DNA from: Spartobacteria bacterium
GTDB taxonomy: Bacteria; Verrucomicrobiota; Kiritimatiellia; RZYC01
Assembly (NCBI GenBank): GCA_009929845.1
Contig: RZZM01000020.1
Span: 1-28,442 of the forward strand
Reading direction: 5' to 3'
DNA: 28,442 bases
This document shows positions 1,464 through 27,397 of this stretch, piece after piece. The notes under the pieces are model-generated. The model worked only from the letters and a program-made list of their open reading frames with translations. It had not been told where the DNA came from and did not search any database. The position numbers and the translations under genes are program-made. How positions within the stretch are numbered: position 1 is the stretch's first letter; the number at the start of each line of letters is the position of its first letter.

Positions 1464-1789
1464 CAGAAATCAAGCTCCTTCTCTTTTTCTTGATGTACAT
1501 GTTTTGGTTGGCGTTTTTTCTCTAAATAAATGCCTGTTTTATCTGCTTCCGGAGCGGCCAACCCTTCCAGTGTTTTCCATAAGTCAAGCACCCACATACA
1601 GCTTAGAAATATCCCCAGGGCAACACCGGTAGAACCTTGCTCTAATCGAGAAATTGTGCGCCGTTCAACCCCGGTACGGGTTGCCAGCTCCTCTTTGCTC
1701 CATCGCCGCCGTACGCGAGCGGTCTGTATGCGTTCACCAAGGATACGAAGTTGCTTGTTAACTTCCTCTGGATATTTATAATGTCCCAT
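1463..1789 (-). CDS. hipB: HipB-like XRE-family helix-turn-helix antitoxin
   Basis: 108-aa ORF with an HTH segment KEELATRTGVERRTISRLEQG. It lies immediately upstream of hipA and is translationally coupled to it. An AT-rich promoter region sits upstream. Confidence 0.75.
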   Translation of the reverse strand: MGHYKYPEEVNKQLRILGERIQTARVRRRWSKEELATRTGVERRTISRLEQGSTGVALGIFLSCMWVLDLWKTLEGLAAPEADKTGIYLEKKRQPKHVHQEKEKELDF

Positions 1790-9499: not shown

Positions 9500-9616
9500 C
9501 TACTGGAATTTCCAGGGACAGAGAAGGTGGTCTGAAGTTTCCGGGTGGCGCGCGAGATGGCATCACGCGTACGGAGGTTCCGCTAACGCTCCACCTCCGC
9601 CGGTGATACTGACGTT

Positions 9617-9936: not shown

Positions 9937-14442
<4,506 letters not shown>

Positions 14443-14607
14443 GTAGTTGTGTTTTTCGTCATAACCCCTATCCTACCCTTGATCCAGATTTTTTTTCAAT
14501 ACCTTTCGTGAGCACCTTCAAAACTTCACCCGCAAGGGGTCCTGGTATTTTTCCGCGCTGTCCCCCGGTCTTCTTTGGGTAGGATTGAGCACGGGTACAG
14601 GCCGTTC

Positions 14608-14712
14608 GTGAAACCTGAAACTGGAAATCTGAGACCTGAAACTGGAGACCTGAGACTTGAAACTGGAAACCTGAGACCTGAAACTTGAGACCTGAAACTT
14701 GAGACCTGAAAC
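14608..14712. repeat. 15 consecutive heptanucleotide tandem repeats, consensus YTGRRAC (CTGAAAC / CTGAGAC / TGGAAAC)
   Basis: Read directly: gtgaaac ctgaaac tggaaat ctgagac ctgaaac tggagac ctgagac ttgaaac tggaaac ctgagac ctgaaac ttgagac ctgaaac ttgagac ctgaaac. A 21-nt periodicity is also apparent. The array lies in the divergent intergenic region between the kinase gene and the CARF gene. Confidence 0.9.
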
Positions 14713-14790
14713 GCGCACCCTGCAACTGTTCTCCCTAACCACCTGCATATCTGCTTGCCTGCCCGCGCGCTATCCTGCTATGGTGTGACC

Positions 14791-15891
14791 ATGAAGCAAT
14801 TTGACACCATACTGCATCTCGCGAACGATACGGCGCTGCCCGATTATTTGATGATTAAACAGTTTGACTGTCCGCGGCACATCATGGCGGTCTCCCACGA
14901 CACCGAACCGGCCTTCAACCTTTTGCAGGGTGTGCTTGGCAAGGAGGGTTGCCACACGGAGAAACTGAATATTCCCGTGGACGATGTGAACACCTGTCGG
15001 CGCCGGCTGGAGAAGGTGGTGACCAGCCTGCCTGAAGGGCGGCACGCCGTCAATCTTACCGGCGGTTCCCGCGTCATGTTTGCCGCCCTTTTTGAGATCG
15101 CCCGGCGCCACGGGCTGCCCGCCGTGCTCCTCGATACCAAAGCAAAGGCCATGCACTGGCTGGATGAGGAGGGCCTCAGCGAACCGCTGCGTCCGGTATT
15201 CCGCGAGGCAACAGGGTTTATCCGCCTGGCCGGCTATGATGTGGACGCCGAGGCGCCAGCCGAACACCTGCGAGTGGCGAACGAACGCCGCGATGCCGCC
15301 ATGGCCTGCTGGCAATATCGCGACCACATCGGCATCTGGAGCAAATCCCTGCGCAACCAAGCCGCGAAACCCGGCCTGCCGTTCCGCGACGGCCCCCGGA
15401 AAATCAAGGGCGTGGAGGTCTCCGCCGTGCTCAAAAAAGAGTCGGACGGCAGCAAGGGCATCCTGCACATCGGCGAGCACGCCTTTACGCTCAAACCCTG
15501 GAAAGACCTGGCTTCATTCATCGCGGGGGGCTGGTACAGGGATGCCGTGCTGGCCAACCTCATGACCCTCAAACACAAGGGCGTCATTCTCGATGTGGCC
15601 CTCGGCGTCAACCCTTCCCCGTCGGCCAAAAACCCGAAGGGACATCTGCCCGCCATGGATATCCTTTATACCGACGGGATCAACCTGACTGTCGTGGATT
15701 GTTACCTGCGATGGAGCGACAACCGGGTCATCCGCCAGGTGGTCCGGCAGGTCCGGCAACTGGCCGGTGATTTTGGCCGCGGCATCCTGGCCGTCGCCTA
15801 TGAAAACGAAAAAGCCCCCCCGAAGAGCGGCCCCACCGTAACCATCCTTTCCGGTCCCGCCGCCGTCTCCCACCCGGAGCACTTTCTCTGA
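14791..15891 (+). CDS. CARF-domain protein with C-terminal DUF1887 / Card1-Can2-like nuclease-fold region (VC1899-like), 366 aa
   Basis: N-terminal Rossmann-like region with the CARF signature VNLTGGSRVMFAALFEIA (h-N-h-T-G-G-S/T-K/R). The C-terminal half has GGWYRDAVLANL (cf. the GxWxExxV helix of PD-(D/E)xK nucleases) followed by ILDVALGV and AMDILYTDG strands. No canonical ExK is visible. Alternative starts are TTG at 14755 and GTG at 14785. No strong SD. The family call rests on motif recognition only. Confidence 0.5.
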   Translation: MKQFDTILHLANDTALPDYLMIKQFDCPRHIMAVSHDTEPAFNLLQGVLGKEGCHTEKLNIPVDDVNTCRRRLEKVVTSLPEGRHAVNLTGGSRVMFAALFEIARRHGLPAVLLDTKAKAMHWLDEEGLSEPLRPVFREATGFIRLAGYDVDAEAPAEHLRVANERRDAAMACWQYRDHIGIWSKSLRNQAAKPGLPFRDGPRKIKGVEVSAVLKKESDGSKGILHIGEHAFTLKPWKDLASFIAGGWYRDAVLANLMTLKHKGVILDVALGVNPSPSAKNPKGHLPAMDILYTDGINLTVVDCYLRWSDNRVIRQVVRQVRQLAGDFGRGILAVAYENEKAPPKSGPTVTILSGPAAVSHPEHFL

Positions 15892-16132: not shown

Positions 16133-16816
16133 ATGGGTCTCATTCAACGTTTAAAGCGGATCACCTCCGCGCGCATTGAGTCATTTCTCAGTTCTGTCGA
16201 GGATCCGGAGGTATTGTTTCCTCAGTTAGTCAGGGAAATGGAAGACCAGGTTCGGGCGGCCACCGAAGCGGAGGCCAAGGCCAAGGCGGCGGTCAAGCAC
16301 GCGCAACGCGATGTGGATCAACTCCGGGAGAAGATCGAGTACTACGGTATCGGGGCGAAGAAGGCGATTGACGGCGGCGACGAGGGCATGGCGAGGGAAG
16401 CCATCAGCGCGCAGTTGAATGTCGAGGAAGCGCTGGAGCGGAAGCAGGCGGTCCTGGAACGGGCGGATGACGTGTATGAAGACGCGCGCAGCGCCCGCGA
16501 ACGTATTCAACGCCAGTTGGAAGAATTGCGCGCCAAGAAGGATGAAATCCTCACACGCGCCCGCGTGGCGAAAAACCAGCTCGAGATTCAACGGACGGTC
16601 AGCGGACCGGTCACGTCGTCGGGCAGCATCCTGGACGCGATCGAGCGGCTGGAGAGCCGGATCGAGGAACAGGAAGCGGAGCTGGAGATTCAGCAAGCGG
16701 CGTCGGGGGATGTGGACGCATCCCTGGACGAGCGGCTGGACGCGATGGCGGACACAACCGCCGTGGATGAACGCCTGGCCGCGTTGAAGCGCAAAATTGC
16801 TGAAGACAAGCAATAA
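16133..16816 (+). CDS. pspA: PspA/IM30 (Vipp1) family protein, paralogue 1 (227 aa)
   Basis: N-terminal amphipathic helix MGLIQRLKRITSARIESFLSSVEDPE is characteristic of PspA/IM30. The protein is a long coiled coil. AGGAAAG lies 7 nt upstream of the ATG. Confidence 0.9.
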   Translation: MGLIQRLKRITSARIESFLSSVEDPEVLFPQLVREMEDQVRAATEAEAKAKAAVKHAQRDVDQLREKIEYYGIGAKKAIDGGDEGMAREAISAQLNVEEALERKQAVLERADDVYEDARSARERIQRQLEELRAKKDEILTRARVAKNQLEIQRTVSGPVTSSGSILDAIERLESRIEEQEAELEIQQAASGDVDASLDERLDAMADTTAVDERLAALKRKIAEDKQ

Positions 16817-16921
16817 CCAGGCAGATTGGTCAGCGGGGGGATGGGCCCATGTTGTACCGGGCTCCTTCTCCCTGCCGGGAATGCATCCGTACGACGCTTA
16901 ACAACGGAAAGGTGGGATACC

Positions 16922-17593
16922 ATGTCTATTTTTGAACGCATACGAAGAATTACACTCGCCAACATCAACAGCCTGCTCGACAAGGCCGAGGACCCGGAAA
17001 CCATGCTCACGCAGAAGATCACCGAGCTGGAAGAGACCGTGCAGGAGGCCAAGGAGGCGCTGGCCGGATTCTCCGTTTCCTTTCGCAGGTCGGAAAATGA
17101 ATTCAACGCGCTGCGGCAGAAACGGGATGAATGGAAAGAACATGCCGTCCATGCCCTCAAAAACAATGATGAAGCGCAGGCGACAAAGGCGCTGCAGGAG
17201 AAGGTGAAAATCGAGCAGCGACTGGAGCGGCTGGAGCCCTCGCTGCGCGAGAGCCGGCATACCTTCGAGCAGTTGAAGGAGCAGTTGACACGTCTGCACG
17301 ATCAACTCAACGCAGCCCGGAATAAAATGGCGGAATTGAAATCCCGCCAACGTTCGGCAGCCGCGCAGCAGGCCTTCGGACGGAGCGTGGACCAGATGGC
17401 GGCCTCGGGGGTGCGGGGCGACGAATTCAACCAGATGGAAGACCAGGTCGCGCAGACCGAATCCCTCGTGGAAATCGAACGGGAAATGCGCGGCGATATC
17501 CTCACGGAACAGGATATGGAGGCCATGACACGCGACATGAAGGTCTCCAACGAACTCGAGGCCCTGAAAAAAGAGCTGGGCAGGCAGGAGTAA
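16922..17593 (+). CDS. pspA: PspA/IM30 family protein, paralogue 2 (223 aa)
   Basis: MSIFERIRRITLANINSLLDKAEDPE N-terminus. AGGTGG SD about 8 nt upstream of the ATG at 16922. The ORF-track start at 16826 lacks an RBS and would add a non-PspA leader. Confidence 0.9.
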   Translation: MSIFERIRRITLANINSLLDKAEDPETMLTQKITELEETVQEAKEALAGFSVSFRRSENEFNALRQKRDEWKEHAVHALKNNDEAQATKALQEKVKIEQRLERLEPSLRESRHTFEQLKEQLTRLHDQLNAARNKMAELKSRQRSAAAQQAFGRSVDQMAASGVRGDEFNQMEDQVAQTESLVEIEREMRGDILTEQDMEAMTRDMKVSNELEALKKELGRQE

Positions 17594-17598
17594 CGATT

Positions 17599-18246
17599 GT
17601 GGGTTTAACGGCCAGGCTCAAGCAGGTGACCAAGGCGCGTGTCGAGGCGTTTCTCGACCGGGCCGAGGACCCCGCGACCGTGTTCCCGCGGCTCGTGAAC
17701 GAGCTGGGCGCCCAGATTCAGGCCCTGAAACACGCGGAGGCCAAGGCGATGTCGGCAGTAAAATCCGCCCAACGAAAACTGGATGAAGTTTCCGGCCGGG
17801 AGGCCCGCCTGGAAAAAGGCGCTGAACTGGCGCTGAAGCTGGGTGATGAGCAGACGGCCCGGGAGGCCCTGACGGTGCAGGTGAAACTTGCCGGCGTGAA
17901 AACCGAACGGGCCCGGGCAGTCGAACAGGCCGAAAAAGACCATGAAGAGGCCCTGCGCACGCGACTGCGCATGGAGGCCTTGTTGGAGGACCTGAAATCA
18001 CGCGCGGGTGAGTATGCCTGCGAGGTTGATTTCACCCGGGCGTTGCCTCATAATCGCCGTCAACAGCGCACACAGGTGTCGCTGCTTGACGCGGTTGCGC
18101 GCATGGAAGGGCGCCTCGATGAGGTCGATGAAGGCTATACGCAGCGCATGGCGCAAAGCGGGCTTACGCTGGAACGGAAGCTTCGGCTGATGGAACGGCA
18201 GCGGATTGTCGAGCAGCGTCTTCAGGCGTTGAAACAGGGTTGTTGA
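17599..18246 (+). CDS. pspA: PspA/IM30 family protein, paralogue 3 (215 aa), GTG start
   Basis: MGLTARLKQVTKARVEAFLDRAEDP N-terminus. GTG start with AGGAG 8 nt upstream, overlapping the stop of paralogue 2 (5-nt gap). Confidence 0.85.
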   Translation: MGLTARLKQVTKARVEAFLDRAEDPATVFPRLVNELGAQIQALKHAEAKAMSAVKSAQRKLDEVSGREARLEKGAELALKLGDEQTAREALTVQVKLAGVKTERARAVEQAEKDHEEALRTRLRMEALLEDLKSRAGEYACEVDFTRALPHNRRQQRTQVSLLDAVARMEGRLDEVDEGYTQRMAQSGLTLERKLRLMERQRIVEQRLQALKQGC

Positions 18247-18293
18247 GTGGTTGGGTTTACCTGCCGGAAGCCGGCAGTAAGGAGTGTAGAGGT

Positions 18294-18965
18294 ATGGAAG
18301 CATTAACAGACTTTTTGTCGGCCTGTGTGGCTATGATCAATCTGCCGTATACGATTCTTTTCCTGGCGATGATCATGTATTGGGTGGCGGTCATTGTCGG
18401 CGCCATGGACCTGGATCTACTGGAGTTTGATATTCCGGTGGATGCGGATGTGGGGTCGGCGCTGGATGCGGATGTGGATGGCGATGTCGATATCGCGGGG
18501 GATGGGTTTCTCCGGTCCCTGCTGCAGTATCTTAATGTTGGCGAAGTGCCGGTTACCATCATTCTGAGTATCTTCATTATCAGTTTATGGGCAATCGCCA
18601 TCGTCGCGAATTATTATCTGAATCCCATGCGGTCGGTGCTGCTGTCGTTTGCGATTTTTGTGCCCAATGTGATTATCAGCATACACATGGCGAAATTCTT
18701 CACCATGCCGCTGGTCAAGGTGTTCAAATCATTGAATGAGGGCGCGGAAGACCCGGGCAGGGATTTGAGCGGGAAAGTGTGTGTGGTGAAGACAAGTGAA
18801 GCAAACGGGACATTTGGCCAGGCGGAGATCAAGACAAAGGGGGTCCCGGTCCTGGTGAATGTGCGGACAGACAACGGCGAGGTTTTGAAAAAAGGAACGG
18901 AAGCCGTGGTGGTGGAAAAGGCAGACAAGGGTGTATATATCATAAGCAAACTGGACTTGGAATAA
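18294..18965 (+). CDS. NfeD-like (YqiJ-like) membrane protein with C-terminal OB-fold beta domain
   Basis: 223 aa from the ATG at 18294 (AGGAG 8 nt upstream). Three or four TM segments (ILFLAMIMYWVAVIVGA, VTIILSIFIISLWAIAIV, LLSFAIFVPNVIISI) with an acidic loop DADVGSALDADVDGDVD. The C-terminal soluble domain is GKVCVVKTSEANGTFGQAEIKTKGVPVLVNVRTDNGEVLKKGTEAVVVEK. It is positioned directly upstream of a flotillin gene, as in yqiJK-type pairs. Confidence 0.7.
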   Translation: MEALTDFLSACVAMINLPYTILFLAMIMYWVAVIVGAMDLDLLEFDIPVDADVGSALDADVDGDVDIAGDGFLRSLLQYLNVGEVPVTIILSIFIISLWAIAIVANYYLNPMRSVLLSFAIFVPNVIISIHMAKFFTMPLVKVFKSLNEGAEDPGRDLSGKVCVVKTSEANGTFGQAEIKTKGVPVLVNVRTDNGEVLKKGTEAVVVEKADKGVYIISKLDLE

Positions 18966-18991
18966 ACACATAAAAAAGAAGGAGGCAGATC

Positions 18992-20974
18992 ATGGTGGCA
19001 GGTATTGTAGGACTGATTGTTATTGGCGTGTTATTTGTATTGGTGATGGGGATGCTGGCGATGCTGGTGAAATGCTATCACAAGGTGCATCAGGGCTCCG
19101 CCATTATTCGAAACGGGTGGGGCGGGCGAAAGGTGTCGTTCGCCGGTATCTTTGTGCTGCCGATCATTCATCATCGCGAATTGATGGATATTTCGGTGAA
19201 GCGTATCGAGATCGACCGCACCGGCTCGGAAGGGCTCGTGTGCCAGGATAATATGCGCGCCGACGTGAAGGTGGCCTTCTTTGTGCGCGTCAATGAGACC
19301 GCCGAAGATGTGCTGCGCGTCGCGCAGTCGTTGGGTTGCGAGCGCGGTTCAAGCCCGCAGGCGCTCATCGAGTTCTTCGATGCGAAGTTTTCTGAAGCAT
19401 TAAAGACGGTCGGCAAAAAATTCGACTTTGTAGAGCTGTATACCAATCGCGATACGTTTAAGGAAGAAATCCTGAAGGTGATCGGCACGGACCTGAACGG
19501 CTACGTGCTGGACGACGCCGCCATCGACTATCTGGAACAGACCAATCTGGACAAGATGGACCCGAATAACATCCTGGACGCGGAAGGCATCAAGAAGATT
19601 GTGGACTTGACGGCCAAACAGGCGGTATTGGCCAACAACATAGCCCGCGAAAAAGAAAAGACCATCAAGAAGCAGGATGTCGAAGCGCGCGAGGCCATTC
19701 TTCAGCTCGAACGTCAGCAGGTGGATGCGGAACAGAAGCAGGGCCGTGAGATTGCGGAAGTGACGGCGCGCGAACAGGCGGAAGCCAAAAAGGTGGAAGC
19801 GGAAGAGCTGTTGAAATCGGAACGGGCGCGTATCGCCACGGCGGAAGAGGTGGCCATTGCGGAAGAAAACAAGGACCGCCAGATCATCGTCGCCAAAAAG
19901 AGCAAAGAACGTACGGAGGCGGTCGAGCAGGAACGTGTCATTAAAGACCGCGATCTGGAGGCCACGGAACGCGAACGGGTGGTCACCCTCGCGCAGATAG
20001 AAAAAGAAAAGGCCGTCGAGGTCGAGAAGAAGAACATGCAGGAAGTGGTGCGTGAACGTGTCGCGGTGGAGCGTACGGTGGTCGAGGAAGAGGAAAAGAT
20101 CAAAGATACCCATGAATTCGCCACCGCCGACCGTTCCAAGCAAGTAGCCATTACCAAGGCCCAGGAGGACGCCGAACAAATACTGATCAAACAGACCAAG
20201 GCGGCTGAAGCACAGCGCGATGCCTCCAAATTTGGCGCCGAGCAGGTGGTCATCGAGGCCCAGGCCCAGCGAGACGCCTCCGAAAGGGAAGCGGAAGCGC
20301 GCAAGATACTGGCGGACGCGAAGGCCGAGGAAGAAGCGGTCATCGGCGTCGGCGAGGCCCGTGCGCTTGAAGCCAAGGCCACCGCTACGGAGCAGTTCGG
20401 CCTGGCGGAAGCCCGGGTCATCGAGAAGAAGGCCAACGCCGACGCCAACGGCATCCGCGACAAGGCCGAGGCGATGAAGCTCTTTGATTCCGTCGGCAAG
20501 GAACACGAAGAATTCAAGCTGCGGCTGAACAAGGACCTCGAGATCGAACTGGCGGCCATTCGCGTGGAACAGGAAATCGCCAAGGAACAATCCGCCATCG
20601 TGGGCGAGGCGCTCAAGAGCGCCCACATCGATATCGTCGGCGGGGAATCAGAATTCTTTGACAAGATTGTCAACGCGGTCACGCGCGGGAAAGTGGTGGA
20701 CCGCATTGTGGACAACAGCCGGGTGCTGACGGACATTACCGACACCTTCTTCAGCGGGGACGCGGCGCAGTTCAAGGAGCAGCTTGCCCGGTTTGTTTCG
20801 CAGTTCGGCATGGGTAGCGAGGATGTCAAAAACCTGACCCTCTCGGCCCTGCTGGCGAAAATGACCGCCCAGACGGACAACGAGCGGACTCAGGCCCTTC
20901 TGGAAAAGGCCGCCCAGGCCGCCGCCAAGCTGGGGCTGTCGGACAAGCTGGCCTCCAGCATCCTGAAGAAATAG
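18992..20974 (+). CDS. flotillin-like SPFH/band-7 family protein (YqiK/FloT-like), 660 aa
   Basis: N-terminal TM helix MVAGIVGLIVIGVLFVLVMGMLAMLV, then an SPFH-type domain, then a long Glu/Ala-rich coiled coil typical of flotillins (EA-repeat region aa about 230-500). Strong GAAGGAGG SD. Confidence 0.85.
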   Translation: MVAGIVGLIVIGVLFVLVMGMLAMLVKCYHKVHQGSAIIRNGWGGRKVSFAGIFVLPIIHHRELMDISVKRIEIDRTGSEGLVCQDNMRADVKVAFFVRVNETAEDVLRVAQSLGCERGSSPQALIEFFDAKFSEALKTVGKKFDFVELYTNRDTFKEEILKVIGTDLNGYVLDDAAIDYLEQTNLDKMDPNNILDAEGIKKIVDLTAKQAVLANNIAREKEKTIKKQDVEAREAILQLERQQVDAEQKQGREIAEVTAREQAEAKKVEAEELLKSERARIATAEEVAIAEENKDRQIIVAKKSKERTEAVEQERVIKDRDLEATERERVVTLAQIEKEKAVEVEKKNMQEVVRERVAVERTVVEEEEKIKDTHEFATADRSKQVAITKAQEDAEQILIKQTKAAEAQRDASKFGAEQVVIEAQAQRDASEREAEARKILADAKAEEEAVIGVGEARALEAKATATEQFGLAEARVIEKKANADANGIRDKAEAMKLFDSVGKEHEEFKLRLNKDLEIELAAIRVEQEIAKEQSAIVGEALKSAHIDIVGGESEFFDKIVNAVTRGKVVDRIVDNSRVLTDITDTFFSGDAAQFKEQLARFVSQFGMGSEDVKNLTLSALLAKMTAQTDNERTQALLEKAAQAAAKLGLSDKLASSILKK

Positions 20975-21022
20975 GGTGATAGACGCGTGGGACCGCAGTC
21001 ACATCTAAAGAACAGAGATACG

Positions 21023-21048
21023 GAAGGGGCGCGGGCGCGTCCCTTCCG
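21023..21048 (+). other. GC-rich stem-loop in the flotillin/AAA+ intergenic spacer
   Basis: ggaaggggcgcg gg cgcgtcccttcc forms an 11-12 bp stem (one G-U) with no following U-tract, 20 nt before the ATG at 21069. Confidence 0.4.
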
Positions 21049-21068
21049 GAAACTACCGGGGTCGTCGT

Positions 21069-24000
21069 ATGGCTGAGCAATCAAAAAAGAATCCTGAACA
21101 GGCGATTGATACGCCGGAGCATGAAAAAACACAATTGGATGCGGGCGCGTATGAGATTATTCGCAAACGCCTGGCCGGGCATGGCCAGGCGCTGGGGGCG
21201 CGCCTGGAGCAACTCGACGCGGAGCGCAAACGGGTTTTCGGGTCCATTGAGACCAGCCTGGTCAACACGGTAAAAATCCCAACCGAGAACAACTGCATCC
21301 CCCGCGACATGATGGCCCTGGGGGAGGTGGTGCTCTTCGGCTACAATGTGCATATCGGATTGCGCAGCGAGGTCTACCTGAATGATGTTTTCGCGGTGTA
21401 CACCTTCGCGGATAACGCCTTCCAGTCGCGTTCGCTGGACGTGATTGCCGATGAGCGCTTCGAGGCCGATTTCAAGGACCTCTATCGCTACTACAAGAAA
21501 ACGCGGTTCGCGAAATTTGCGCGCATAGGCGCGTACATGTACATGGTATTCCAGATTGGCAGCGACGATCGGGATATTAAGGCGTTCAAGTGGCATGTCG
21601 ATGACGCCGGGACGCTGACCTATGTGGACAACCGGTCTGACCACGAGGTGAAATTTCCGCCGCAACACGAGTTTACCTGGGTGCGCACCCACCGGGATAT
21701 GCAGCGCGACGGGGTGAATCCGCATGTCTCCATCAATGATGTGATTTTCGTGGAAACCGTCGGCGGCGACCTCACCGTCAAGATTGAGGACAACACCGAC
21801 ACCGGCGAAGGCATCTACAGCGAGCCCGTGGATGATCCGGACCAGGTGCTGGATGACGCGGATATTTTTTATGCTGACCTGGGCAGTTTGATTCTGCTGA
21901 AGATACGCCCTTATCAGGAGCAGCGCTACCGCTATCTCGTGTACAGCCGCAAGATGCAGCAGGTCACCCGCATCGATACCATCGAGGATTCCTGCGTGCT
22001 GCTGCCCAACGAACACGGCATTATCTTCTCCAATGGCTACTATCTCCAGAGCGGCGAGCACAAGGAATATGAAAGCGACCTGCTCAACATGCTCTTTGAA
22101 AAAAAGGTGGCCTCGCCCAACGGCGAGGATGTGCTGTATGTCTTTTACAACCAGGCCAGCGGAACCTATGAGCTGCTCTCGTATAATGTGATTCGCCAGC
22201 GCATCGAAACGCCTATGGTCTGCCACGGTTATTGCCTGTTCGACAACGGGAAACTGATCTATTTCAAGGCCGGGGACAATCCCGTCAAGACCCATACGGT
22301 CCAGATTTGGCAGACCCCGTACATCGAGGATGAGCACGAAATCAATGCCGACAAAAATTCGTATCTTTTCAAGATCGGCAACAGCGATATTGTTCGTTGC
22401 ATGGCCGCCTGCCGGGCGGTCATCAACCTGGCGAACCGCGAGGATTCCTACGAAAACCTGTACCTCGACCTGGTCAAGCAGACGACGGAGACGATGGATA
22501 CCTTCTTCTGGCTCGATCATGCGGAGGTTTTCAACCTCAAGGAATGCATGGTGGGCATCCATGACGCCGCCTCGGCGGCGATGGATGAATTCGAGAAGGT
22601 CCTGAACCTGAAAAAGAACAGCCGTGAGCAGGTCGCCGCCGTGGCCGAAAAATGCAAAAAGATATTGGCGGCCGCGCAGACGGCGCACTTCAAGGTGATT
22701 GATGAATTCGTCACCCTGTTGAGCGAAATGCGGACCCTTCGCGGCGAGATCATCGCGTTGCGGGATCTGCGGTACGTGGATGAGGCGCGCCTGGAAGAAC
22801 TTGAAGAGGCGGTCACTTCAGAAACCGAAAAGGTTGCGCGTCACTGCGTGGAATTTTTGCTTAAACCCGAGGCCCTTCATCCCTACCAGGAGCGCGTTGC
22901 GGAGATTCAGCAGCAGGTGGCCAAGGTCGGCAAAGTGGCCGACGCCAAAAAGATTGATGAAGCGGTGGCGTCCGCCGCCGGTGAGCTGGAAATGCTGATT
23001 GATGTGGTCAGCAACCTGAACATCGAAGATGCCACGCAGCGAACGGATATCATCGACGGGATTTCCGCCATTTTTTCCTCGTTGAACCGCGTGCGCAGCG
23101 CCCTCAAGAACCGCATGAAAGAGCTGGCCTCGGTGGAAGGCATTGCCGAATTTGCCTCGCGGGTCAAACTGCTGGACCAGGCGGTTATCAATTACCTGGA
23201 TGTATGCGATAGCGCCGATAAGTGCGAAGAATACCTGGGCAAGGTGATGCTCCAGCTCGAAGAACTGGAGGGGGCCTTTGCCGATTATGATGAATTTGTC
23301 GAACAGTTGGCCGAAAAACGCGAGGAGATCTACAACACGTTTGAAACGCGCCGCCTGAAGCTGGTGGAGGAGCGCAACCGCCGAACGGATACCCTCATGC
23401 GCAGCGCCGAGCGTATGCTCAAGGGCATCCGGACACGCGCGGAAGGCATGGACAGCAACGAGGCCATTCACGCCTATTTTGCGTCGGACCTGATGGTGGA
23501 CAAAGTGCGCAATGTCATCCGGCAGTTGACGGAACTCAATGACACGGTCAAGGCCGGGGATATCCAGGCCCAACTGAAGACGATCCGGGAAAACGCGGTT
23601 CGGCAGTTGAAGGATAAACAGGAACTCTTCCTGGACGGCCAGAATGTCATTGCCTTTGGCCGCCACCATTTCTCCGTCAACACACAGACGCTGGATTTGA
23701 CCACCGTACTGCGCGGCGAGGCGATGTACCTGCATCTGACCGGAACGGATTTCTTTGAAGAGATCACGGAGGACACCTTCCTGGCGACCCGCGACGCGTG
23801 GCGGCAGGATGTGGTTTCGGAAACCGCGGCGGTCTACCGGGGCGAATACCTGGCGTACCTTTTATTCCAGGCCGCGCAGGCGGTCGGCGCCGATCCGTCC
23901 CTGGCGGCGTTGGCGGCGTTTTCGGAGGAGGAGAGCCTGGCCTATGTGCGCGGGTACATGGGCCCACGATTCAGCGAGGGCTACATCAAGGGCGTGACGG

Positions 24001-26339
24001 ACGGGGACGCGGTGAAGATACTGCAGGCGGTCCTGTCCCTGCATACAAGCCTGGGGTTGCTGCGGTTCCGCGCGAAGGCCCGCGCCCTGGCCGTGGTGTT
24101 CTGGCGGCAATGCCCGGAGGACGGGGACAGACAACTGCTGCTGGGCAAGCTCTCGGGCTTCGGCAAACTGTTGCGTGTGTTCCCGGAGGAGCCGCGCCAA
24201 CGCGAGTATATTATCGAGCTGACCGAACGAATATCCGCCTTTGCAAAACGGTACAATACCCTGTTTGATGAGGAGGACGCGCGGGAAGCCGGCGAGTATC
24301 TTTTTGCGGTGCTGACCGGGGACGGACAGCATCCAGTCAGCCGGGAAGCCGCCGATATCCATACGGGCTTCATCGGCATGCTGAAAAAAGCGAATGCCGA
24401 AAAGGAATTTCGGCAGGCCCGCGAAGAGGTGGCCGACGATCCATGTTCAGCCTACTCGGTCATTCGTGACTGGGTGGAGGCCTTTTTGAACCAGGATGCC
24501 GGGGCGTGCGACCCGGGGTATCGCGATGAAGCGGCCGCCCTGTTTTTTTCCGGTGACTATGATGTCAAGCGGGTGATTGATGTGCCCGCCCGGCGCGACC
24601 TGGCGGATATGGCCGGGGAACACCCCCTGATCGCAAAGGGGCTTTACGTGTTCAACTATCATGATTTCATGAGGCGGTTGCATCATCATCAGACCGTCGT
24701 TGTGCCGATGTACGAACAATACCAGGACATGAAGAAGGCCTGGCTCGTGCGTGAACGCGAGGCCATGCGACTGGCTGAATTCATGCCGCGGGTGTTGACC
24801 TCCTTTGTGCGCAACCAGTTGTTGGACCGGGTCTATCTTCCGTTGGTGGGGGACAATCTGGCCAAACAGATTGGCGTGGTCGGCGAGGAAACCCGAACCG
24901 ATCGTATGGGGCTGCTCATGCTGATTTCACCGCCGGGCTACGGCAAAACAACACTGATGGAATATATCGCCAACCGGCTGGGGCTGGTCTTCATGAAAAT
25001 CAACGGTCCGGCCATCGGATGCCATGTGACCTCCCTGGATCCGGAGGAAGCGCCAAATGCCGCCGCGCGCGAGGAATTGAAGAAGCTGAACCTGTCCCTT
25101 GAGATGGGGGATAACGTGATGCTGTATGTCGATGATATCCAGCATTGCAATCCGGAGTTTTTGCAGAAATTTATTTCGTTGTGCGACGCACAGCGGAAGA
25201 TCGAGGGCGTGTACAAGGGCCGTTCCAGCACCTATGACCTGCGCGGGAAGACTGTGGCCGTGGTGATGGCCGGCAACCCTTACACGGAGAGCGGCGAAAT
25301 GTTCAAGGTCCCGGACATGCTGGCCAACCGCGCCGACACCTACAACCTGGGCGATATCATCGGCGACAATGCGGACGCCTTCAAGCTCAGCTACATTGAA
25401 AATGCGCTGACCTCTAATCCGGTGACCAACCGCCTGGCGGCCCGCAGCCGGGATGACATCTACGCCATGATCCGGCTGGCGGAAACCGGGTCCAGGGAAG
25501 GCATCGATTTCGAGGGCAATTATACCGTCGAGGAAACCAACGAGTATGCCTCCGTCATCAAAAAGATATTGCGCATACGCGATGTCGTGCTGACCATGAA
25601 CATGGCCTATATCCATTCCGCCGCTCAGGCGGATGAATTCAGGACGGAGCCGGCGTTCAAACTGCAGGGGTCCTACCGCAACATGAACCGCATGGCCGAA
25701 AAGGTGCAGGCCATCATGAATGACCGTGAACTTGAAACCATGATCTTTTCGCACTATGAAAATGAAGCGCAAACCCTGACCACCGGCGCGGAAGCGAATC
25801 TACTGAAATTCAAAGAGCTGTTGAATATCATGAGCGAGGAGGAAAAGGCCCGCTGGGCGGATATCAAGCGCACCTTTGGACGCAACCAGTTATTCCGCGG
25901 TGTGGAAGGGGACGACAAACTCGGGCAGGTCATTGTGCAGTTGAGCACCTTCCGCGAAGGACTGGAGGATATCGGCAAAGCCCTCTCCGGGTTGGCCGAA
26001 CCGCGCAAGGGCATTACTTCGCTGGATGGGGTGGTCGAAACGCGGCTGGCGCCCGAAACCCTCCAGGCGTTGTCATCCGCATTCGGCGGCCTTAGGGAGT
26101 CTGTCGCCGGGATGAAAGAGGAACTGTCGCGAGCCGCGGAGCAAAAACCGGGCATTGATCCGGAACTCATAAAAATGCTCGAACAACAATTTTCCCGGAT
26201 GCAGGGATGGCTGGACCCCAAGGAAGTCGCCCTGAAAGGCACGATTGAGGAAGTGGAAATACTGCGGCACCGCATGAAAGATGCCGCGGAGAACTATCAC
26301 TATCTGCTTGAGCAGCTTGGACGGGGCGGAGTACGCTAA
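21069..26339 (+). CDS. very large (1756 aa) multidomain protein with a single MoxR/AAA_5-like AAA+ ATPase module and long coiled coils
   Basis: Walker A LISPPGYGKTT (about nt 24930-24953). Walker B VMLYVDDIQH (about nt 25116-25145). Sensor-1 and downstream motif VAVVMAGNPYTESGEMFKVPDMLANRAD resemble the MoxR/AAA_5 pattern NP...G...LPxAxxDRF. The N-terminal roughly 470 aa is beta-rich with unknown fold. aa about 480-1000 is predicted coiled coil. No TM segments. Confidence 0.8.
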   Translation: MAEQSKKNPEQAIDTPEHEKTQLDAGAYEIIRKRLAGHGQALGARLEQLDAERKRVFGSIETSLVNTVKIPTENNCIPRDMMALGEVVLFGYNVHIGLRSEVYLNDVFAVYTFADNAFQSRSLDVIADERFEADFKDLYRYYKKTRFAKFARIGAYMYMVFQIGSDDRDIKAFKWHVDDAGTLTYVDNRSDHEVKFPPQHEFTWVRTHRDMQRDGVNPHVSINDVIFVETVGGDLTVKIEDNTDTGEGIYSEPVDDPDQVLDDADIFYADLGSLILLKIRPYQEQRYRYLVYSRKMQQVTRIDTIEDSCVLLPNEHGIIFSNGYYLQSGEHKEYESDLLNMLFEKKVASPNGEDVLYVFYNQASGTYELLSYNVIRQRIETPMVCHGYCLFDNGKLIYFKAGDNPVKTHTVQIWQTPYIEDEHEINADKNSYLFKIGNSDIVRCMAACRAVINLANREDSYENLYLDLVKQTTETMDTFFWLDHAEVFNLKECMVGIHDAASAAMDEFEKVLNLKKNSREQVAAVAEKCKKILAAAQTAHFKVIDEFVTLLSEMRTLRGEIIALRDLRYVDEARLEELEEAVTSETEKVARHCVEFLLKPEALHPYQERVAEIQQQVAKVGKVADAKKIDEAVASAAGELEMLIDVVSNLNIEDATQRTDIIDGISAIFSSLNRVRSALKNRMKELASVEGIAEFASRVKLLDQAVINYLDVCDSADKCEEYLGKVMLQLEELEGAFADYDEFVEQLAEKREEIYNTFETRRLKLVEERNRRTDTLMRSAERMLKGIRTRAEGMDSNEAIHAYFASDLMVDKVRNVIRQLTELNDTVKAGDIQAQLKTIRENAVRQLKDKQELFLDGQNVIAFGRHHFSVNTQTLDLTTVLRGEAMYLHLTGTDFFEEITEDTFLATRDAWRQDVVSETAAVYRGEYLAYLLFQAAQAVGADPSLAALAAFSEEESLAYVRGYMGPRFSEGYIKGVTDGDAVKILQAVLSLHTSLGLLRFRAKARALAVVFWRQCPEDGDRQLLLGKLSGFGKLLRVFPEEPRQREYIIELTERISAFAKRYNTLFDEEDAREAGEYLFAVLTGDGQHPVSREAADIHTGFIGMLKKANAEKEFRQAREEVADDPCSAYSVIRDWVEAFLNQDAGACDPGYRDEAAALFFSGDYDVKRVIDVPARRDLADMAGEHPLIAKGLYVFNYHDFMRRLHHHQTVVVPMYEQYQDMKKAWLVREREAMRLAEFMPRVLTSFVRNQLLDRVYLPLVGDNLAKQIGVVGEETRTDRMGLLMLISPPGYGKTTLMEYIANRLGLVFMKINGPAIGCHVTSLDPEEAPNAAAREELKKLNLSLEMGDNVMLYVDDIQHCNPEFLQKFISLCDAQRKIEGVYKGRSSTYDLRGKTVAVVMAGNPYTESGEMFKVPDMLANRADTYNLGDIIGDNADAFKLSYIENALTSNPVTNRLAARSRDDIYAMIRLAETGSREGIDFEGNYTVEETNEYASVIKKILRIRDVVLTMNMAYIHSAAQADEFRTEPAFKLQGSYRNMNRMAEKVQAIMNDRELETMIFSHYENEAQTLTTGAEANLLKFKELLNIMSEEEKARWADIKRTFGRNQLFRGVEGDDKLGQVIVQLSTFREGLEDIGKALSGLAEPRKGITSLDGVVETRLAPETLQALSSAFGGLRESVAGMKEELSRAAEQKPGIDPELIKMLEQQFSRMQGWLDPKEVALKGTIEEVEILRHRMKDAAENYHYLLEQLGRGGVR

Positions 26340-27338: not shown

Positions 27339-27397
27339 TCAAACCAACAGCCTAACCACCTACCACCTAACCACCTAACCACCTACCACCTAACCAT
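27339..27397. repeat. imperfect tandem array of CCTAACCA / CCTACCA units (about 7 units)
   Basis: aaccaacag cctaacca cctacca cctaacca cctaacca cctacca cctaacca tc. Confidence 0.85.

What the first reader, a model, noticed from the sequence alone, without database searches (positions are those of the whole stretch)
14608..14712. Array of 15 tandem heptanucleotide repeats (YTGRRAC) in a divergent promoter region
A perfect-register 7-nt tandem array 105 bp long lies between the divergently transcribed hybrid sensor kinase and the CARF-protein gene. It ends about 80 bp before the CARF ATG. A superimposed 21-bp periodicity (two helical turns) would place recurring sites on one DNA face, which fits cooperative binding of a regulator. 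Heptanucleotide tracts are also classic slipped-strand-mispairing substrates, so the array could mediate phase-variable expression of either flanking gene. Both would be unusual in this type of genome.
Basis: seen in the sequence. Interest (0 to 1): 0.55.

Follow-up and report, generated by a model that had tools for sequence, protein, structure and literature searches.

The report
Interrupted heptanucleotide microsatellite between divergent promoters
The 105-bp array is real, but it is best read as an ordinary slippage-made 7-base microsatellite of a CTGAAAC-type family found in many bacterial phyla, and nothing tested supports a dedicated regulator-docking site or a proven phase-variation switch.

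Summary
Observation confirmed. Window 14608-14712 holds 15 gap-free heptamers. The consensus is YKGARAC (core CTGAAAC), with 14/21/42-nt super-periods.

The array lies between a hybrid sensor kinase (- strand) and a Can2/Card1-like CARF-nuclease gene (+ strand). It ends 78 nt before that gene's ATG.

The contig is a Verrucomicrobiota MAG labelled 'Spartobacteria bacterium'.

- **Not a conserved control element.** Three orthologous CARF-nuclease genes share a gap-free -35/18 nt/-10/6 nt/ATG block, which looks like a leaderless promoter. The array ends 42 nt upstream of that -35 and is absent from the two orthologues.
- **No regulon signature.** No second copy of even a two-unit motif occurs elsewhere in the 28 kb.
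- **Widespread family.** Arrays of this family occur in at least 120 genome loci across more than 10 phyla. That count includes five Verrucomicrobiota, whose intergenic DNA is packed with period-7 repeats of many sequences.
- **Composition-driven variation.** The variable unit positions track genomic G+C.

Best reading: an interrupted long simple-sequence repeat made by strand slippage. At most it tunes promoter spacing.

Regulator docking is unsupported. Phase variation is untested and made less likely by the interruptions. "Unusual for this genome" is contradicted.

By-product: shorter arrays of this family often sit, sense-oriented, directly before start codons.

The parts
14608..14712 (+). 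Array of 15 in-register heptamers, consensus YKGARAC (core CTGAAAC). The + strand is the A-rich 'forward' strand, with TGA recurring in all three frames. The - strand is open in all frames.
   Evidence: As a single strand it is almost structure-free: MFE -8.3 kcal/mol against a background of -30.2 +/- 7.5 and GC-matched windows of -21.9 +/- 4.7.
14747..14793 (+). Conserved promoter block of the CARF-nuclease gene. ATCTGC precedes the -35 TTGCCT (14755-14760). An 18-nt spacer leads to the -10 TATGGT (14779-14784), followed by 6 nt and the ATG at 14791. The layout implies a leaderless or near-leaderless mRNA.
   Evidence: Gap-free alignment with two orthologous upstream regions (A2). The consensus scan calls the equivalent sites in L003 (TTGATA-18-TATGCT) and L002 (TTGATT-18-TATACT), each ending 6 nt before the ATG. 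The window's own site scores 8/12, just under the scan threshold. Function is inferred, not shown.
14791..15891 (+). Can2/Card1-like CARF + PD-(D/E)xK nuclease gene (NCBI NCC50152.1, 'DUF1887 family protein'). It is the gene that the A-rich strand of the array faces.
9937..14442 (-). Hybrid sensor histidine kinase (dCache_3, PAS, GAF, HisKA, HATPase_c, 2x receiver, Hpt), transcribed away from the array.
14470..14499 (-). The only sigma-70-like site found for the kinase (TTGAAA-18-TAGGAT). It overlaps a T8/A8 run at 14489-14496. The array starts 108 nt upstream of this -35.
   Evidence: This is a consensus match only.
14734..14744 (+). Single copy of CCTAACCACCT, the unit of the contig's second tandem array. 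It lies between the heptamer array and the -35.
   Evidence: 5 matches against 0.2 expected; 4 of them are in the second array. One search shows no wider similarity.
27351..27396 (+). Second short-unit tandem array (CCTAACCA / CCTACCA, about 6 copies), downstream of the 3' end of a - strand ORF and not in a promoter region.

Best explanation
The feature is an interrupted heptanucleotide microsatellite, a 'long simple sequence repeat': 15 head-to-tail copies of YKGARAC.

**How it most likely arose (inferred).** A short CTGAAAC-type seed expanded by slipped-strand mispairing. Later slippage in 14-, 21- and 42-nt registers copied blocks that had already acquired substitutions, which produced the super-periods. 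The substitutions are confined to positions 1, 2 and 5. At positions 2 and 5 they follow the G+C pressure of the genome.

**Where it sits.** It occupies the 348-bp spacer between two divergently transcribed genes. It ends 42 nt upstream of the conserved -35 of the CARF-nuclease gene and starts 108 nt upstream of the only promoter-like site for the kinase. It is therefore most likely not part of either mRNA. It is also not a conserved part of either gene's control region.

**Why it is tolerated there (inferred).** The A-rich strand carries TGA in all three frames and is almost structure-free. Such arrays can persist only outside coding DNA and do little harm in a spacer.

**Likely effect.** Any effect on expression would be generic and length-dependent: changed distance and helical phase between the two promoters, changing by 7 bp (about 240 degrees) per unit gained or lost. 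Sequence-specific docking of a regulator is not needed to explain anything seen.

**Shown:** the array, its register and periodicities; the family's distribution; its absence from orthologous promoters; the conserved promoter block.

**Inferred:** slippage origin, non-transcription, and weak or absent function.
For: 1. The tract is gap-free with nested 7/14/21/42-nt periodicities.
2. The family is widespread. By my count of the record titles these are about 41 Bacteroidota, 32 Acidobacteriota, 11 Desulfobacterota/Myxococcota, 5 Verrucomicrobiota, 5 Planctomycetota and others. IMG/VR viral contigs gave 93 further stretches. Six metagenome contigs carry the window's own 28-mer at unrelated loci.
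3. These genomes have a general 7-nt bias. In the 885 kb of loci, TRF finds 317 period-7 arrays against at most 41 for any other period. About 143 of the 317 belong to roughly 107 heptamer families outside the queried one.
4. Verrucomicrobial loci L007, L075, L119 (Chthoniobacter) and L124 each carry 3-10 period-7/8 arrays of several sequence families, and L031 carries two of the queried family. The window has a second 7/8-nt array.
5. G at unit positions 2 and 5 rises from 4% in loci below 40% G+C to 35-44% above 60% (Spearman rho 0.33 and 0.37, p<1e-6). The window's values (0.20 and 0.40, at 56% G+C) fit that trend.
6. The array is absent upstream of the orthologues in L002 and L003, while the -35/-10/ATG block is conserved gap-free.
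7. There is no dimer of the motif elsewhere in the window. Single heptamers number 40 against 29.6 +/- 5.2 expected.
8. Long arrays of this family (7 or more units) are mostly not next to gene starts and often end contigs. The Logan assembly of the same sample breaks inside this array, at window position 14683.
9. There is no Rfam match, no stable fold and no inverted-repeat partner.
Against: - The same core heptamer recurs across very distant phyla. Short arrays show a clear orientation bias towards downstream start codons, so the family as a whole is probably not purely neutral.
- Here the A-rich strand does face the CARF-nuclease gene, as in the functional-looking cases.
- The transcription start sites are predicted, not measured. 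An upstream promoter that transcribes the array cannot be excluded.
- Invariance of G3, A4 and A6 over 15 units could reflect selection, although block duplication makes the number of independent events small.
- No population data exist for this locus, so hypervariability and its consequences are unknown.
Confidence: 0.6

Rival explanations
1. RNA-level leader or insulator element. The array is transcribed from an unrecognised upstream promoter as part of a long 5' leader of the CARF-nuclease gene. There its A-rich, structure-free, all-frames-stop sequence acts like the start-codon-proximal heptamer repeats seen elsewhere, as a ribosome standby or translation-reset site, or as a site for a single-strand-binding regulator.
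For: - The A-rich strand is the sense strand for the CARF-nuclease gene.
- In other genomes, arrays of this family are followed within 30 nt by a start codon plus an ORF of at least 100 codons: 30 of 120 arrays in the forward orientation against 8 in the reverse.
- IMG/VR contigs reproduce this: 29 against 12 of 92 arrays.
- The N-termini look genuine, for example IlvC-, HemA-, TrpA-, L24-, RpoN- and Frr-like.
- Viral contig L182 has 12-14-unit arrays before consecutive co-oriented genes.
- The array is exceptionally unstructured.
- The pattern is analogous to the TAACTGA repeats of Beggiatoaceae (PMC4679880).
Against: - The array ends 78 nt from the ATG, not within a few nt.
- A promoter block conserved in three orthologues lies between the array and the ATG and implies a leaderless transcript.
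- The orthologues lack the array.
- No convincing + strand promoter lies upstream of the array.
- Long arrays and the verrucomicrobial arrays are mostly not start-proximal.
Confidence: 0.15
2. Copy-number-tunable (phase-variable) promoter spacer. Slippage changes the unit number, and with it the distance and helical phase between the two divergent promoters, or between an upstream site and a promoter. This gives heritable, reversible changes in expression of the kinase or the nuclease.
For: - Heptameric tracts can do this. (ATCTTTC)n upstream of H. influenzae hmw1A/2A ranges from 11 to 63 copies and tunes expression (PMC12721329).
- The last 35 nt of the array are a perfect 14-nt repeat of 2.5 copies.
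- The array lies between two divergent genes.
Against: - The tract is interrupted: no two adjacent units are identical and identity at lag 7 is only 0.70. From general knowledge of microsatellites, interruptions lower slippage rates.
- It lies outside both predicted promoters and outside any ORF.
- There is no hairpin partner of the hmw type.
- The flanking genes are not surface or restriction-modification genes.
- Related genomes carry such arrays in very many intergenic regions, including non-promoter ones.
- No polymorphism data could be obtained.
Confidence: 0.12
3. Cooperative regulator-binding array. A DNA-binding protein recognises the heptamer, or a 21-bp composite of it, and polymerises along one face of the DNA to control one or both flanking genes.
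For: - G3, A4, A6 and C7 are invariant or nearly so.
- There is a 21-nt super-period: TGG-type units fall at 14622, 14643 and 14664.
- The location is upstream of two promoters.
- TGAAAC resembles half-sites used by some winged-helix response regulators (own knowledge, not tested).
Against: - The motif is not found at any other intergenic region of the window.
- It is not conserved at orthologous promoters.
- No DNA-binding response regulator is encoded in the window.
- A contiguous 7-bp spacing puts successive sites on different helix faces.
- The same arrays occur between convergent genes, inside operons and in phage contigs across more than 10 phyla. A locus-specific operator would not be expected to do that.
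- The variable positions track genomic G+C.
Confidence: 0.07
4. Assembly artefact. The array, or the join across it, is a mis-assembly. Two unrelated loci that each end in a similar array may have been merged, or the unit number collapsed or expanded. In that case the 'divergent promoter' context or the copy number would not be real.
For: - Arrays of this family frequently terminate contigs.
- The independent Logan assembly of the same run breaks inside the array at window 14683. Its contig on the kinase side is only 1.7 kb and does not reach the array.
- Contiguity therefore rests on the MAG assembly alone.
Against: - The unit order is heterogeneous enough to give unique k-mers at the k values used by metagenome assemblers.
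- The Logan break coincides with the perfect 14-nt repeat, as expected for k=31.
- G+C content is similar on both sides.
- The 30 nt of array present in the Logan contig are identical to the window.
Confidence: 0.05

Closest known systems
Long simple sequence repeats with 5-11-nt units, heptanucleotide class (Mrazek et al. 2007, as summarised in PMC4679880; also PMC4060949, PMC4692102)
   Same: Head-to-tail tandem copies of a 7-nt unit, far longer than chance, lying in non-coding DNA of a free-living bacterium. Heptamers are the dominant unit length, and polymerase slippage is the proposed origin.
   Different: Verrucomicrobiota and this CTGAAAC-type unit are not mentioned in the papers I could read. 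This tract is interrupted and has higher-order periods.
TAACTGA direct repeats of marine Beggiatoaceae, some Cyanobacteria and Bacteroidetes (MacGregor 2015, PMC4679880)
   Same: An intergenic heptamer array with stop codons in all three frames on the 'forward' strand and an open reverse strand, little RNA structure and a patchy cross-phylum distribution. In the wider YKGARAC family the forward strand points at a nearby start codon, often with no obvious Shine-Dalgarno motif (not systematically counted).
   Different: The heptamer is different (CTGAAAC is not a rotation of TAACTGA). There are 15 copies rather than 2-6. In the window the array is 78 nt from the ATG, with a promoter in between.
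Cyanobacterial STRR (short tandemly repeated repetitive) heptanucleotide sequences (Mazel et al. 1990; own knowledge, paper not read here)
   Same: Tandemly amplified heptanucleotides of several sequence families dispersed through the intergenic DNA of a genome, with function unknown.
   Different: Different phylum and units. Dispersal within this MAG could not be measured and is seen only in related verrucomicrobial loci.
Haemophilus influenzae hmw1A/hmw2A (ATCTTTC)n phase-variable tract (PMC12721329, PMC8262952)
   Same: A heptanucleotide tandem tract upstream of a gene, with 11-63 copies there and 15 here. It is the proven example that such tracts can tune expression.
   Different: The hmw tract is perfect, is transcribed in the 5'UTR, pairs with a G-rich partner to form an RNase III-cleaved hairpin, and its polymorphism is documented. 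Here the tract is interrupted, has no partner, is probably untranscribed, and has no polymorphism data.
Heptameric direct-repeat operators of SARP-type regulators (PMC5930380, title and abstract only)
   Same: Direct repeats of a 7-nt motif in a promoter region.
   Different: From my own knowledge, those repeats are few and spaced about one helical turn apart next to the -35. Here 15 contiguous units begin 42 nt upstream of the -35, and no cognate regulator gene is present.

Membership tests
Bacterial long simple sequence repeat (heptanucleotide microsatellite) | Uninterrupted head-to-tail register of a unit of 1-11 nt | tested here: met
   15 units of 7 nt with 0% indels.
Bacterial long simple sequence repeat (heptanucleotide microsatellite) | Length beyond chance expectation for the sequence | tested here: met
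   7 two-unit matches against 0.07 expected; 0 of 100 shuffles reach 7. TRF scores up to 160.
Bacterial long simple sequence repeat (heptanucleotide microsatellite) | Non-coding location for units whose length is not a multiple of 3 | tested here: met
   The array lies between ORFs 9937-14442 (-) and 14791-15891 (+). TGA closes all three + frames. The 85-aa - strand ORF through the array is not in the collection searched, which holds the other NCBI-annotated proteins of this contig.
Phase-variation (contingency-locus) repeat | Tract placed where unit number changes expression: inside an ORF, between -35 and -10, or in the 5'UTR | tested here: not met
   The array lies upstream of both predicted promoters. 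The promoters are predictions.
Phase-variation (contingency-locus) repeat | Perfect or near-perfect repeats that confer high slippage rates | tested here: not met
   No two adjacent units are identical and lag-7 identity is 0.70. Only a 2.5-copy perfect 14-mer at the 3' end.
Phase-variation (contingency-locus) repeat | Observed unit-number polymorphism between strains or within populations | not testable with these tools
   No second occurrence of the locus was found: CARF-gene homologues are at most 63% identical, kinase homologues at most 55%, and the flank 26-mer is absent from JGI metagenomes.
Regulator operator or iteron array | Motif recurs at other promoters of the same genome (regulon) | tested here: not met
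   No dimer occurs outside the array in the 28 kb. Single heptamers number 40 against 29.6 +/- 5.2 expected. Only this contig of the genome was available.
Regulator operator or iteron array | Sites conserved at orthologous promoters | tested here: not met
   L002 and L003 keep the -35/-10/ATG block but have no array.
Regulator operator or iteron array | Spacing in phase with the DNA helix | tested here: inconclusive
   The 7-bp unit is out of phase. A 21/42-nt super-period exists (lag 21: 0.83; lag 42: 0.86), but block duplication explains it equally well.
Regulator operator or iteron array | Cognate DNA-binding regulator encoded nearby | tested here: not met
   The only helix-turn-helix protein in the window is the XRE partner of HipA at 1463-1789. 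The kinase has receiver and Hpt domains but no output domain.
TAACTGA-type start-codon-proximal heptamer repeats (MacGregor 2015) | Unit TAACTGA | tested here: not met
   The unit is CTGAAAC-type. The paper's main text contains neither GAAAC nor GTTTC.
TAACTGA-type start-codon-proximal heptamer repeats (MacGregor 2015) | Forward strand closes all three reading frames and reverse strand is open | tested here: met
   TGA occurs in 12 of the 15 units, shifting one frame per unit. A - strand ORF runs through the array.
TAACTGA-type start-codon-proximal heptamer repeats (MacGregor 2015) | Forward orientation, a few to tens of nt upstream of a start codon, usually without a ribosome-binding site | tested here: not met
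   The orientation is forward towards the CARF-nuclease gene, but the array is 78 nt away with a conserved promoter in between. Other members of the YKGARAC family do meet this feature.
Cyanobacterial STRR | Heptanucleotide arrays of several families dispersed through one genome | tested here: inconclusive
   This 28-kb contig has two short-unit arrays. Related verrucomicrobial loci hold 2-10 per 4.5-8 kb.
Cyanobacterial STRR | Cyanobacterial host | tested here: not met
   The contig's proteins are deposited as 'Spartobacteria bacterium', phylum Verrucomicrobiota.

The most novel reading that the evidence does not exclude
CTGAAAC-type (YKGARAC) heptamer arrays would be a cross-phylum cis-acting element read on the sense strand of the downstream gene. 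The 15-unit array here would then be an expanded, copy-number-tunable version that controls a stand-alone Can2-like CARF nuclease. That would extend the unexplained TAACTGA phenomenon of giant sulfur bacteria to Bacteroidota, Acidobacteriota, Verrucomicrobiota, Desulfobacterota and their phages.
Probability: 0.12. Interest if true: 0.65.

Novelty: new member of a known kind. Interest (0 to 1): 0.33.

Why it matters
**For this locus, little.** It warns annotators that a conspicuous repeat in a promoter region need not be an operator. It also shows that such arrays break short-read assemblies.

**Wider value lies in the by-product.**
- One heptamer core (CTGAAAC and G+C-shifted variants) recurs as tandem arrays in many phyla and in viral contigs.
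- Period 7 outnumbers every other repeat period in those loci.
- Short arrays are preferentially sense-oriented directly before start codons.

If confirmed with proper gene calls and transcript data, this would give a testable handle on two open questions. One is why heptanucleotide repeats are the favoured bacterial microsatellite. The other is whether they serve as Shine-Dalgarno-independent translation leaders. Tractable Flavobacterium species carry them.

Tried and rejected
- **Known RNA family.** Rfam at E<=1 over 14200-15000 found nothing.
- **Structured RNA or DNA.** MFE is -8.3 (z -0.2) on the + strand and -8.0 (z +0.7) on the - strand. Rejected.
- **hmw-like hairpin partner, or transposon or MITE ends.** No inverted repeat involves the array.
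- **Coding repeat on the - strand** (ORF 14468-14725, 85 aa). It has a TTG start, is not in the collection that holds the other NCBI-annotated proteins of this contig, and a frame would not survive changes in unit number. Rejected.
- **Strain comparison.** All attempts failed.
  - The CARF-nuclease protein has only 4 homologues, at most 63% identical and in non-syntenic contexts.
  - The kinase has no close orthologue.
  - The right-flank 26-mer is absent from JGI metagenomes.
  - Two 43-aa 'cluster mates' of the CARF protein were unrelated clustering artefacts.
- **Independent assembly across the array.** The Logan contigs stop inside it or do not reach it.
- **Literature by sequence.** No paper in the library contains CTGAAAC or TTGAAAC dimers in a bacterial context. 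The hits are yeast primers and one mammalian (CHO-cell) paper.
- **Gene calling by GC3 in the verrucomicrobial loci.** Too noisy for exact start distances. All class-level orientation statistics therefore rest on a crude rule: ATG/GTG followed by an open frame of at least 100 codons.
- **Array as a sigma-70 promoter.** By my own reading of the sequence, not a tool result, TTGAAA resembles a -35, but the positions 16-18 nt downstream match TATAAT at only 2-3 of 6 bases. Rejected as unlikely.
- **AlphaFold model of the CARF protein.** It was poor (pLDDT 55). It was used only because its top fold hits agree with the sequence evidence.
Full report
**1. The observation**

The sequence at 14608-14712 consists of 15 heptamers in perfect register: GTGAAAC CTGAAAC TGGAAAT CTGAGAC CTGAAAC TGGAGAC CTGAGAC TTGAAAC TGGAAAC CTGAGAC CTGAAAC TTGAGAC CTGAAAC TTGAGAC CTGAAAC. 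Tandem Repeats Finder reports the tract with 0% indels under periods 14, 21 and 42, with scores of 117-160.

A two-unit pattern with up to one mismatch occurs 7 times in the 28,442-bp window, always inside the tract. The shuffle expectation is 0.07.

G3, A4 and A6 are invariant and C7 is present in 14 of 15 units. Variation is limited to position 1 (C8/T6/G1), position 2 (T12/G3) and position 5 (A9/G6).

Identity between the tract and itself is 0.70 at lag 7, 0.78 at lag 14, 0.83 at lag 21 and 0.86 at lag 42. At lags 10 and 11 it is 0.02-0.03.

**2. The surroundings**

The window is an entire contig of a GenBank metagenome-assembled genome labelled 'Spartobacteria bacterium' (Verrucomicrobiota). 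It carries proteins NCC50145-NCC50159.

Left of the array, on the - strand, is a 1501-aa hybrid sensor kinase (dCache_3, PAS, GAF, HisKA, HATPase_c, two receivers, Hpt). Its first possible ATG is at 14442, 165 nt from the array.

Right of the array, on the + strand, is a 366-aa protein starting at 14791. Pfam and PDB sequence searches give only weak CARF hits. The stronger evidence is:
- PADLOC's CARF4--CARF_PDDEXK model matches at E=1e-37.
- NCBI names it a DUF1887 family protein.
- A low-confidence AlphaFold model (pLDDT 55) finds Can2 (7bdv, 8bao), VC1899 (1xmx) and Can1 (6sce) as its top fold matches.

The 'CARF protein' label is therefore correct. The gene encodes a Can2/Card1-like nuclease, and no cas genes are in the window.

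Downstream follow three PspA/IM30 genes, a YqiJ-like membrane protein, a protein NCBI calls flotillin, and a 1756-aa DUF3686/DUF7902/AAA ATPase.

**3. Where the promoters are**

The CARF-nuclease protein has only four homologues among 5.8 billion clustered proteins. Their contigs are not syntenic with the window.

Even so, the 50 nt upstream of the start codon align without a gap in the window and in two homologous loci, L002 and L003:
- an invariant ATCTGCTTG
- 18 nt later, TATGGT / TATACT / TATGCT
- 6 nt later, the ATG (A2)

The consensus scan independently calls TTGATA-18-TATGCT in L003 and TTGATT-18-TATACT in L002, each ending 6 nt before the ATG. The window's TTGCCT-18-TATGGT scores 8 of 12, just under the scan's cut-off.

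A -10 element ending 6 nt before the start codon implies a leaderless or nearly leaderless mRNA. This is an inference from conservation and from the standard sigma-70 promoter geometry.

The array ends 42 nt upstream of this -35, and L002 and L003 have no array at all.

For the kinase, the only promoter-like site is TTGAAA-18-TAGGAT on the - strand at 14499-14470. The array starts 108 nt upstream of its -35.

On present evidence the array lies in the untranscribed spacer between two divergent promoters. It is not a conserved component of either.

**4. Is the motif used elsewhere on the contig?**

It is not. No other dimer of the unit exists, apart from one at 9530 with one mismatch. Single heptamers are only mildly above a first-order Markov expectation: 40 against 29.6 +/- 5.2.

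No DNA-binding response regulator is encoded in the window. There is no Rfam match and no inverted-repeat partner.

There is also no meaningful fold on either strand. The tract is among the least structured 105-nt stretches of the contig:
- array MFE: -8.3 kcal/mol
- background windows: -30.2 +/- 7.5
- GC-matched windows: -21.9 +/- 4.7

**5. Related sequences elsewhere**

By record title (my count) they break down as follows.

| Group | Loci |
|---|---|
| Bacteroidota (24 are Flavobacteriaceae, mostly Flavobacterium) | about 41 |
| Acidobacteriota (many Pyrinomonadaceae) | 32 |
| Desulfobacterota / Myxococcota (includes Desulfonema magnum) | 11 |
| Verrucomicrobiota | 5 |
| Planctomycetota | 5 |
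| Other phyla (Proteobacteria 10, Actinomycetota 6, Chloroflexota 3, others 7) | the remaining 26 |

IMG/VR viral contigs gave 93 further stretches. Six metagenome contigs contain the window's own 28-mer, CTGAGACCTGAAACTTGAGACCTGAAAC, at loci unrelated to the window.

Across the 885 kb of genome loci plus the window, TRF finds 317 period-7 arrays against at most 41 for any other period. About 174 belong to the queried family and about 143 to roughly 107 other heptamer families. These genomes therefore have a general bias towards 7-nt repeats. This matches the survey by Mrazek and colleagues as summarised in PMC4679880.

The verrucomicrobial loci make the point most clearly:
- L007 holds nine period-7/8/9 arrays in 8 kb, including a roughly 19-unit CGGAGAC/CTGAGAC tract that aligns to the window's array at 79% identity.
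- L075 (Lacunisphaera) holds 10 period-7 arrays of seven families.
- L124 holds seven.
- L119 (Chthoniobacter, the same class as the window's label) holds three in 4.5 kb.

The window itself has a second 7/8-nt array at 27351-27396, near the 3' end of an ORF.

**6. Why the units vary**

Across 213 loci, the frequency of G at unit positions 2 and 5 rises with local G+C. It is 4% below 40% G+C and 35-44% above 60% (Spearman rho 0.33 and 0.37, p<1e-6). The window, at 56% G+C, has 0.20 and 0.40.

The K and R positions are thus where compositional pressure acts on a CTGAAAC core. Nothing here calls for alternating binding specificities.

No two adjacent units are identical, but that is only marginally unexpected (P=0.10 by permutation). 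Together with the nested periods, this is the picture of an old, interrupted microsatellite remodelled by block duplication.

**7. A family-level pattern that bears on the rivals**

I used a crude gene criterion: an ATG or GTG followed by at least 100 open codons. By that rule, arrays are followed within 30 nt by a gene start on the A-rich ('forward') strand in 30 of 120 cases, against 8 on the other strand. The viral contigs reproduce this, with 29 against 12 of 92.

The N-termini look genuine, for example IlvC-, HemA-, TrpA-, L24-, RpoN-, Frr- and ArsC-like sequences. The spacers often show no obvious Shine-Dalgarno motif, although I did not count this systematically. In viral contig L182, 12-14-unit arrays precede consecutive co-oriented genes.

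This mirrors what MacGregor described for TAACTGA repeats: forward strand with stops in all frames, a position directly before start codons, and a patchy cross-phylum distribution (PMC4679880). That paper's main text contains neither GAAAC nor GTTTC, and I found no paper containing dimers of the present unit in a bacterial context.

The family as a whole is therefore unlikely to be purely neutral. However, long arrays (7 or more units) and the verrucomicrobial arrays are mostly not start-proximal. They occur in every kind of intergenic context, including between convergent genes and at contig ends.

In the window the forward strand does face the CARF-nuclease gene, but at 78 nt and with the conserved promoter in between.

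**8. Verdict on mechanism**

Most likely (about 0.6), the tract is a slippage-generated, interrupted heptanucleotide microsatellite. It is tolerated in a non-transcribed promoter spacer and has at most a generic, length-dependent influence on the two promoters.

| Rival | Confidence | Main point |
|---|---|---|
| RNA-level leader or insulator for the CARF-nuclease gene | 0.15 | Needs an unrecognised upstream promoter |
| Copy-number-tunable promoter spacer, as in H. influenzae hmw (PMC12721329) | 0.12 | Tract is interrupted, lies outside the promoters and has no hairpin partner |
| Cooperative regulator-binding array | 0.07 | No positive evidence |
| Assembly artefact | 0.05 | Logan assembly of the same run breaks inside the tract at its perfect 14-nt repeat; no second assembly spans it |

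**9. Limits**

- Only one 28-kb contig of the genome was available.
- The genome scan was truncated, and its loci were selected for containing an array.
- Gene calls in other loci are heuristic.
- Promoters are predicted.
- No population or transcript data exist for this locus.

Noticed in passing
L005-L124 (genomes), L128-L220 (IMG/VR), L221-L226 (metagenomes): CTGAAAC-type (YKGARAC) heptamer arrays occur in many phyla and in viral contigs. Short arrays are preferentially oriented with the A-rich strand as sense strand and end within 30 nt of a start codon (30 vs 8 of 120; 29 vs 12 of 92). The spacers often show no obvious Shine-Dalgarno motif, though this was not counted systematically. This resembles the TAACTGA phenomenon, with a different heptamer that I did not find described.
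   Followed up: partly
L007 1279-6552; L075 4609-7469; L124 2095-6414; L119 2889-4251: Verrucomicrobial intergenic regions are packed with period-7 (some period-8) tandem arrays of many unrelated sequences, roughly one per 0.7-1.5 kb and sometimes three abutting. Across all fetched loci, period 7 outnumbers every other period (317 against at most 41).
   Followed up: partly
window 14747-14793; L002 6081-6127; L003 62-108: The Can2-like gene and two orthologues (62-63% identical) in non-syntenic contexts share a gap-free ATCTGC-TTGnnn-18 nt-TATnnT-6 nt-ATG block. This suggests a conserved promoter giving a leaderless mRNA. The extra invariant ATCTGC just upstream of the -35 is unexplained.
   Followed up: partly
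window 14791-15891: A stand-alone Can2/Card1-like CARF + PD-(D/E)xK nuclease with no cas genes on the contig. The protein family is very rare, with 4 homologues among 5.8 billion clustered proteins.
   Followed up: partly
window 14734-14744 and 27351-27396: The 11-mer CCTAACCACCT is the unit of a second tandem array (CCTAACCA/CCTACCA, about 6 copies). It also occurs once between the heptamer array and the -35 of the Can2-like gene. No wider similarity exists between the two regions.
   Followed up: partly
window 14489-14496: A T8 run (A8 on the - strand) is the longest homopolymer on the contig. It overlaps the -35 and spacer of the only promoter-like site for the hybrid kinase. A homopolymer there is a more classical slippage substrate for changing promoter spacing than the heptamer array.
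   Followed up: no
window 16133-26339: A co-directional cluster of three PspA/IM30 paralogues, a YqiJ-N-like membrane protein, a 660-aa protein NCBI calls flotillin (no Pfam hit here) and a 1756-aa DUF3686/DUF7902/AAA ATPase. It looks like a membrane-stress or remodelling module.
   Followed up: no
window 228-1789: A HipA-family toxin gene (228-1463, -) is preceded by an XRE-family helix-turn-helix gene (1463-1789, -). This region has lower G+C (47-50%) than the rest of the contig.
   Followed up: no
window 9937-14442: The best homologues of the hybrid kinase (43-55% identity over part of its length) come from Desulfobacterales and Chromatiaceae (Thiocystis, Marichromatium), not from Verrucomicrobiota. 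The taxonomic label of the MAG was taken from the record and not verified independently.
   Followed up: no
L001 1-30 (= window 14683-14712): The Logan assembly of run SRR8327731 starts its contig inside the array, at the perfect 14-nt repeat. Many long arrays in other genomes also sit at contig ends, so these arrays are systematic breakpoints of short-read assemblies.
   Followed up: yes
L031 4268-4355; L045 3247-3432; L097 3936-4014; L024 7612-7747: Pairs of arrays of the same family in opposite orientation lie about 25-160 nt apart. In some cases each seems to point outward towards a divergent gene. In L031 the two arms could form a long hairpin.
   Followed up: no
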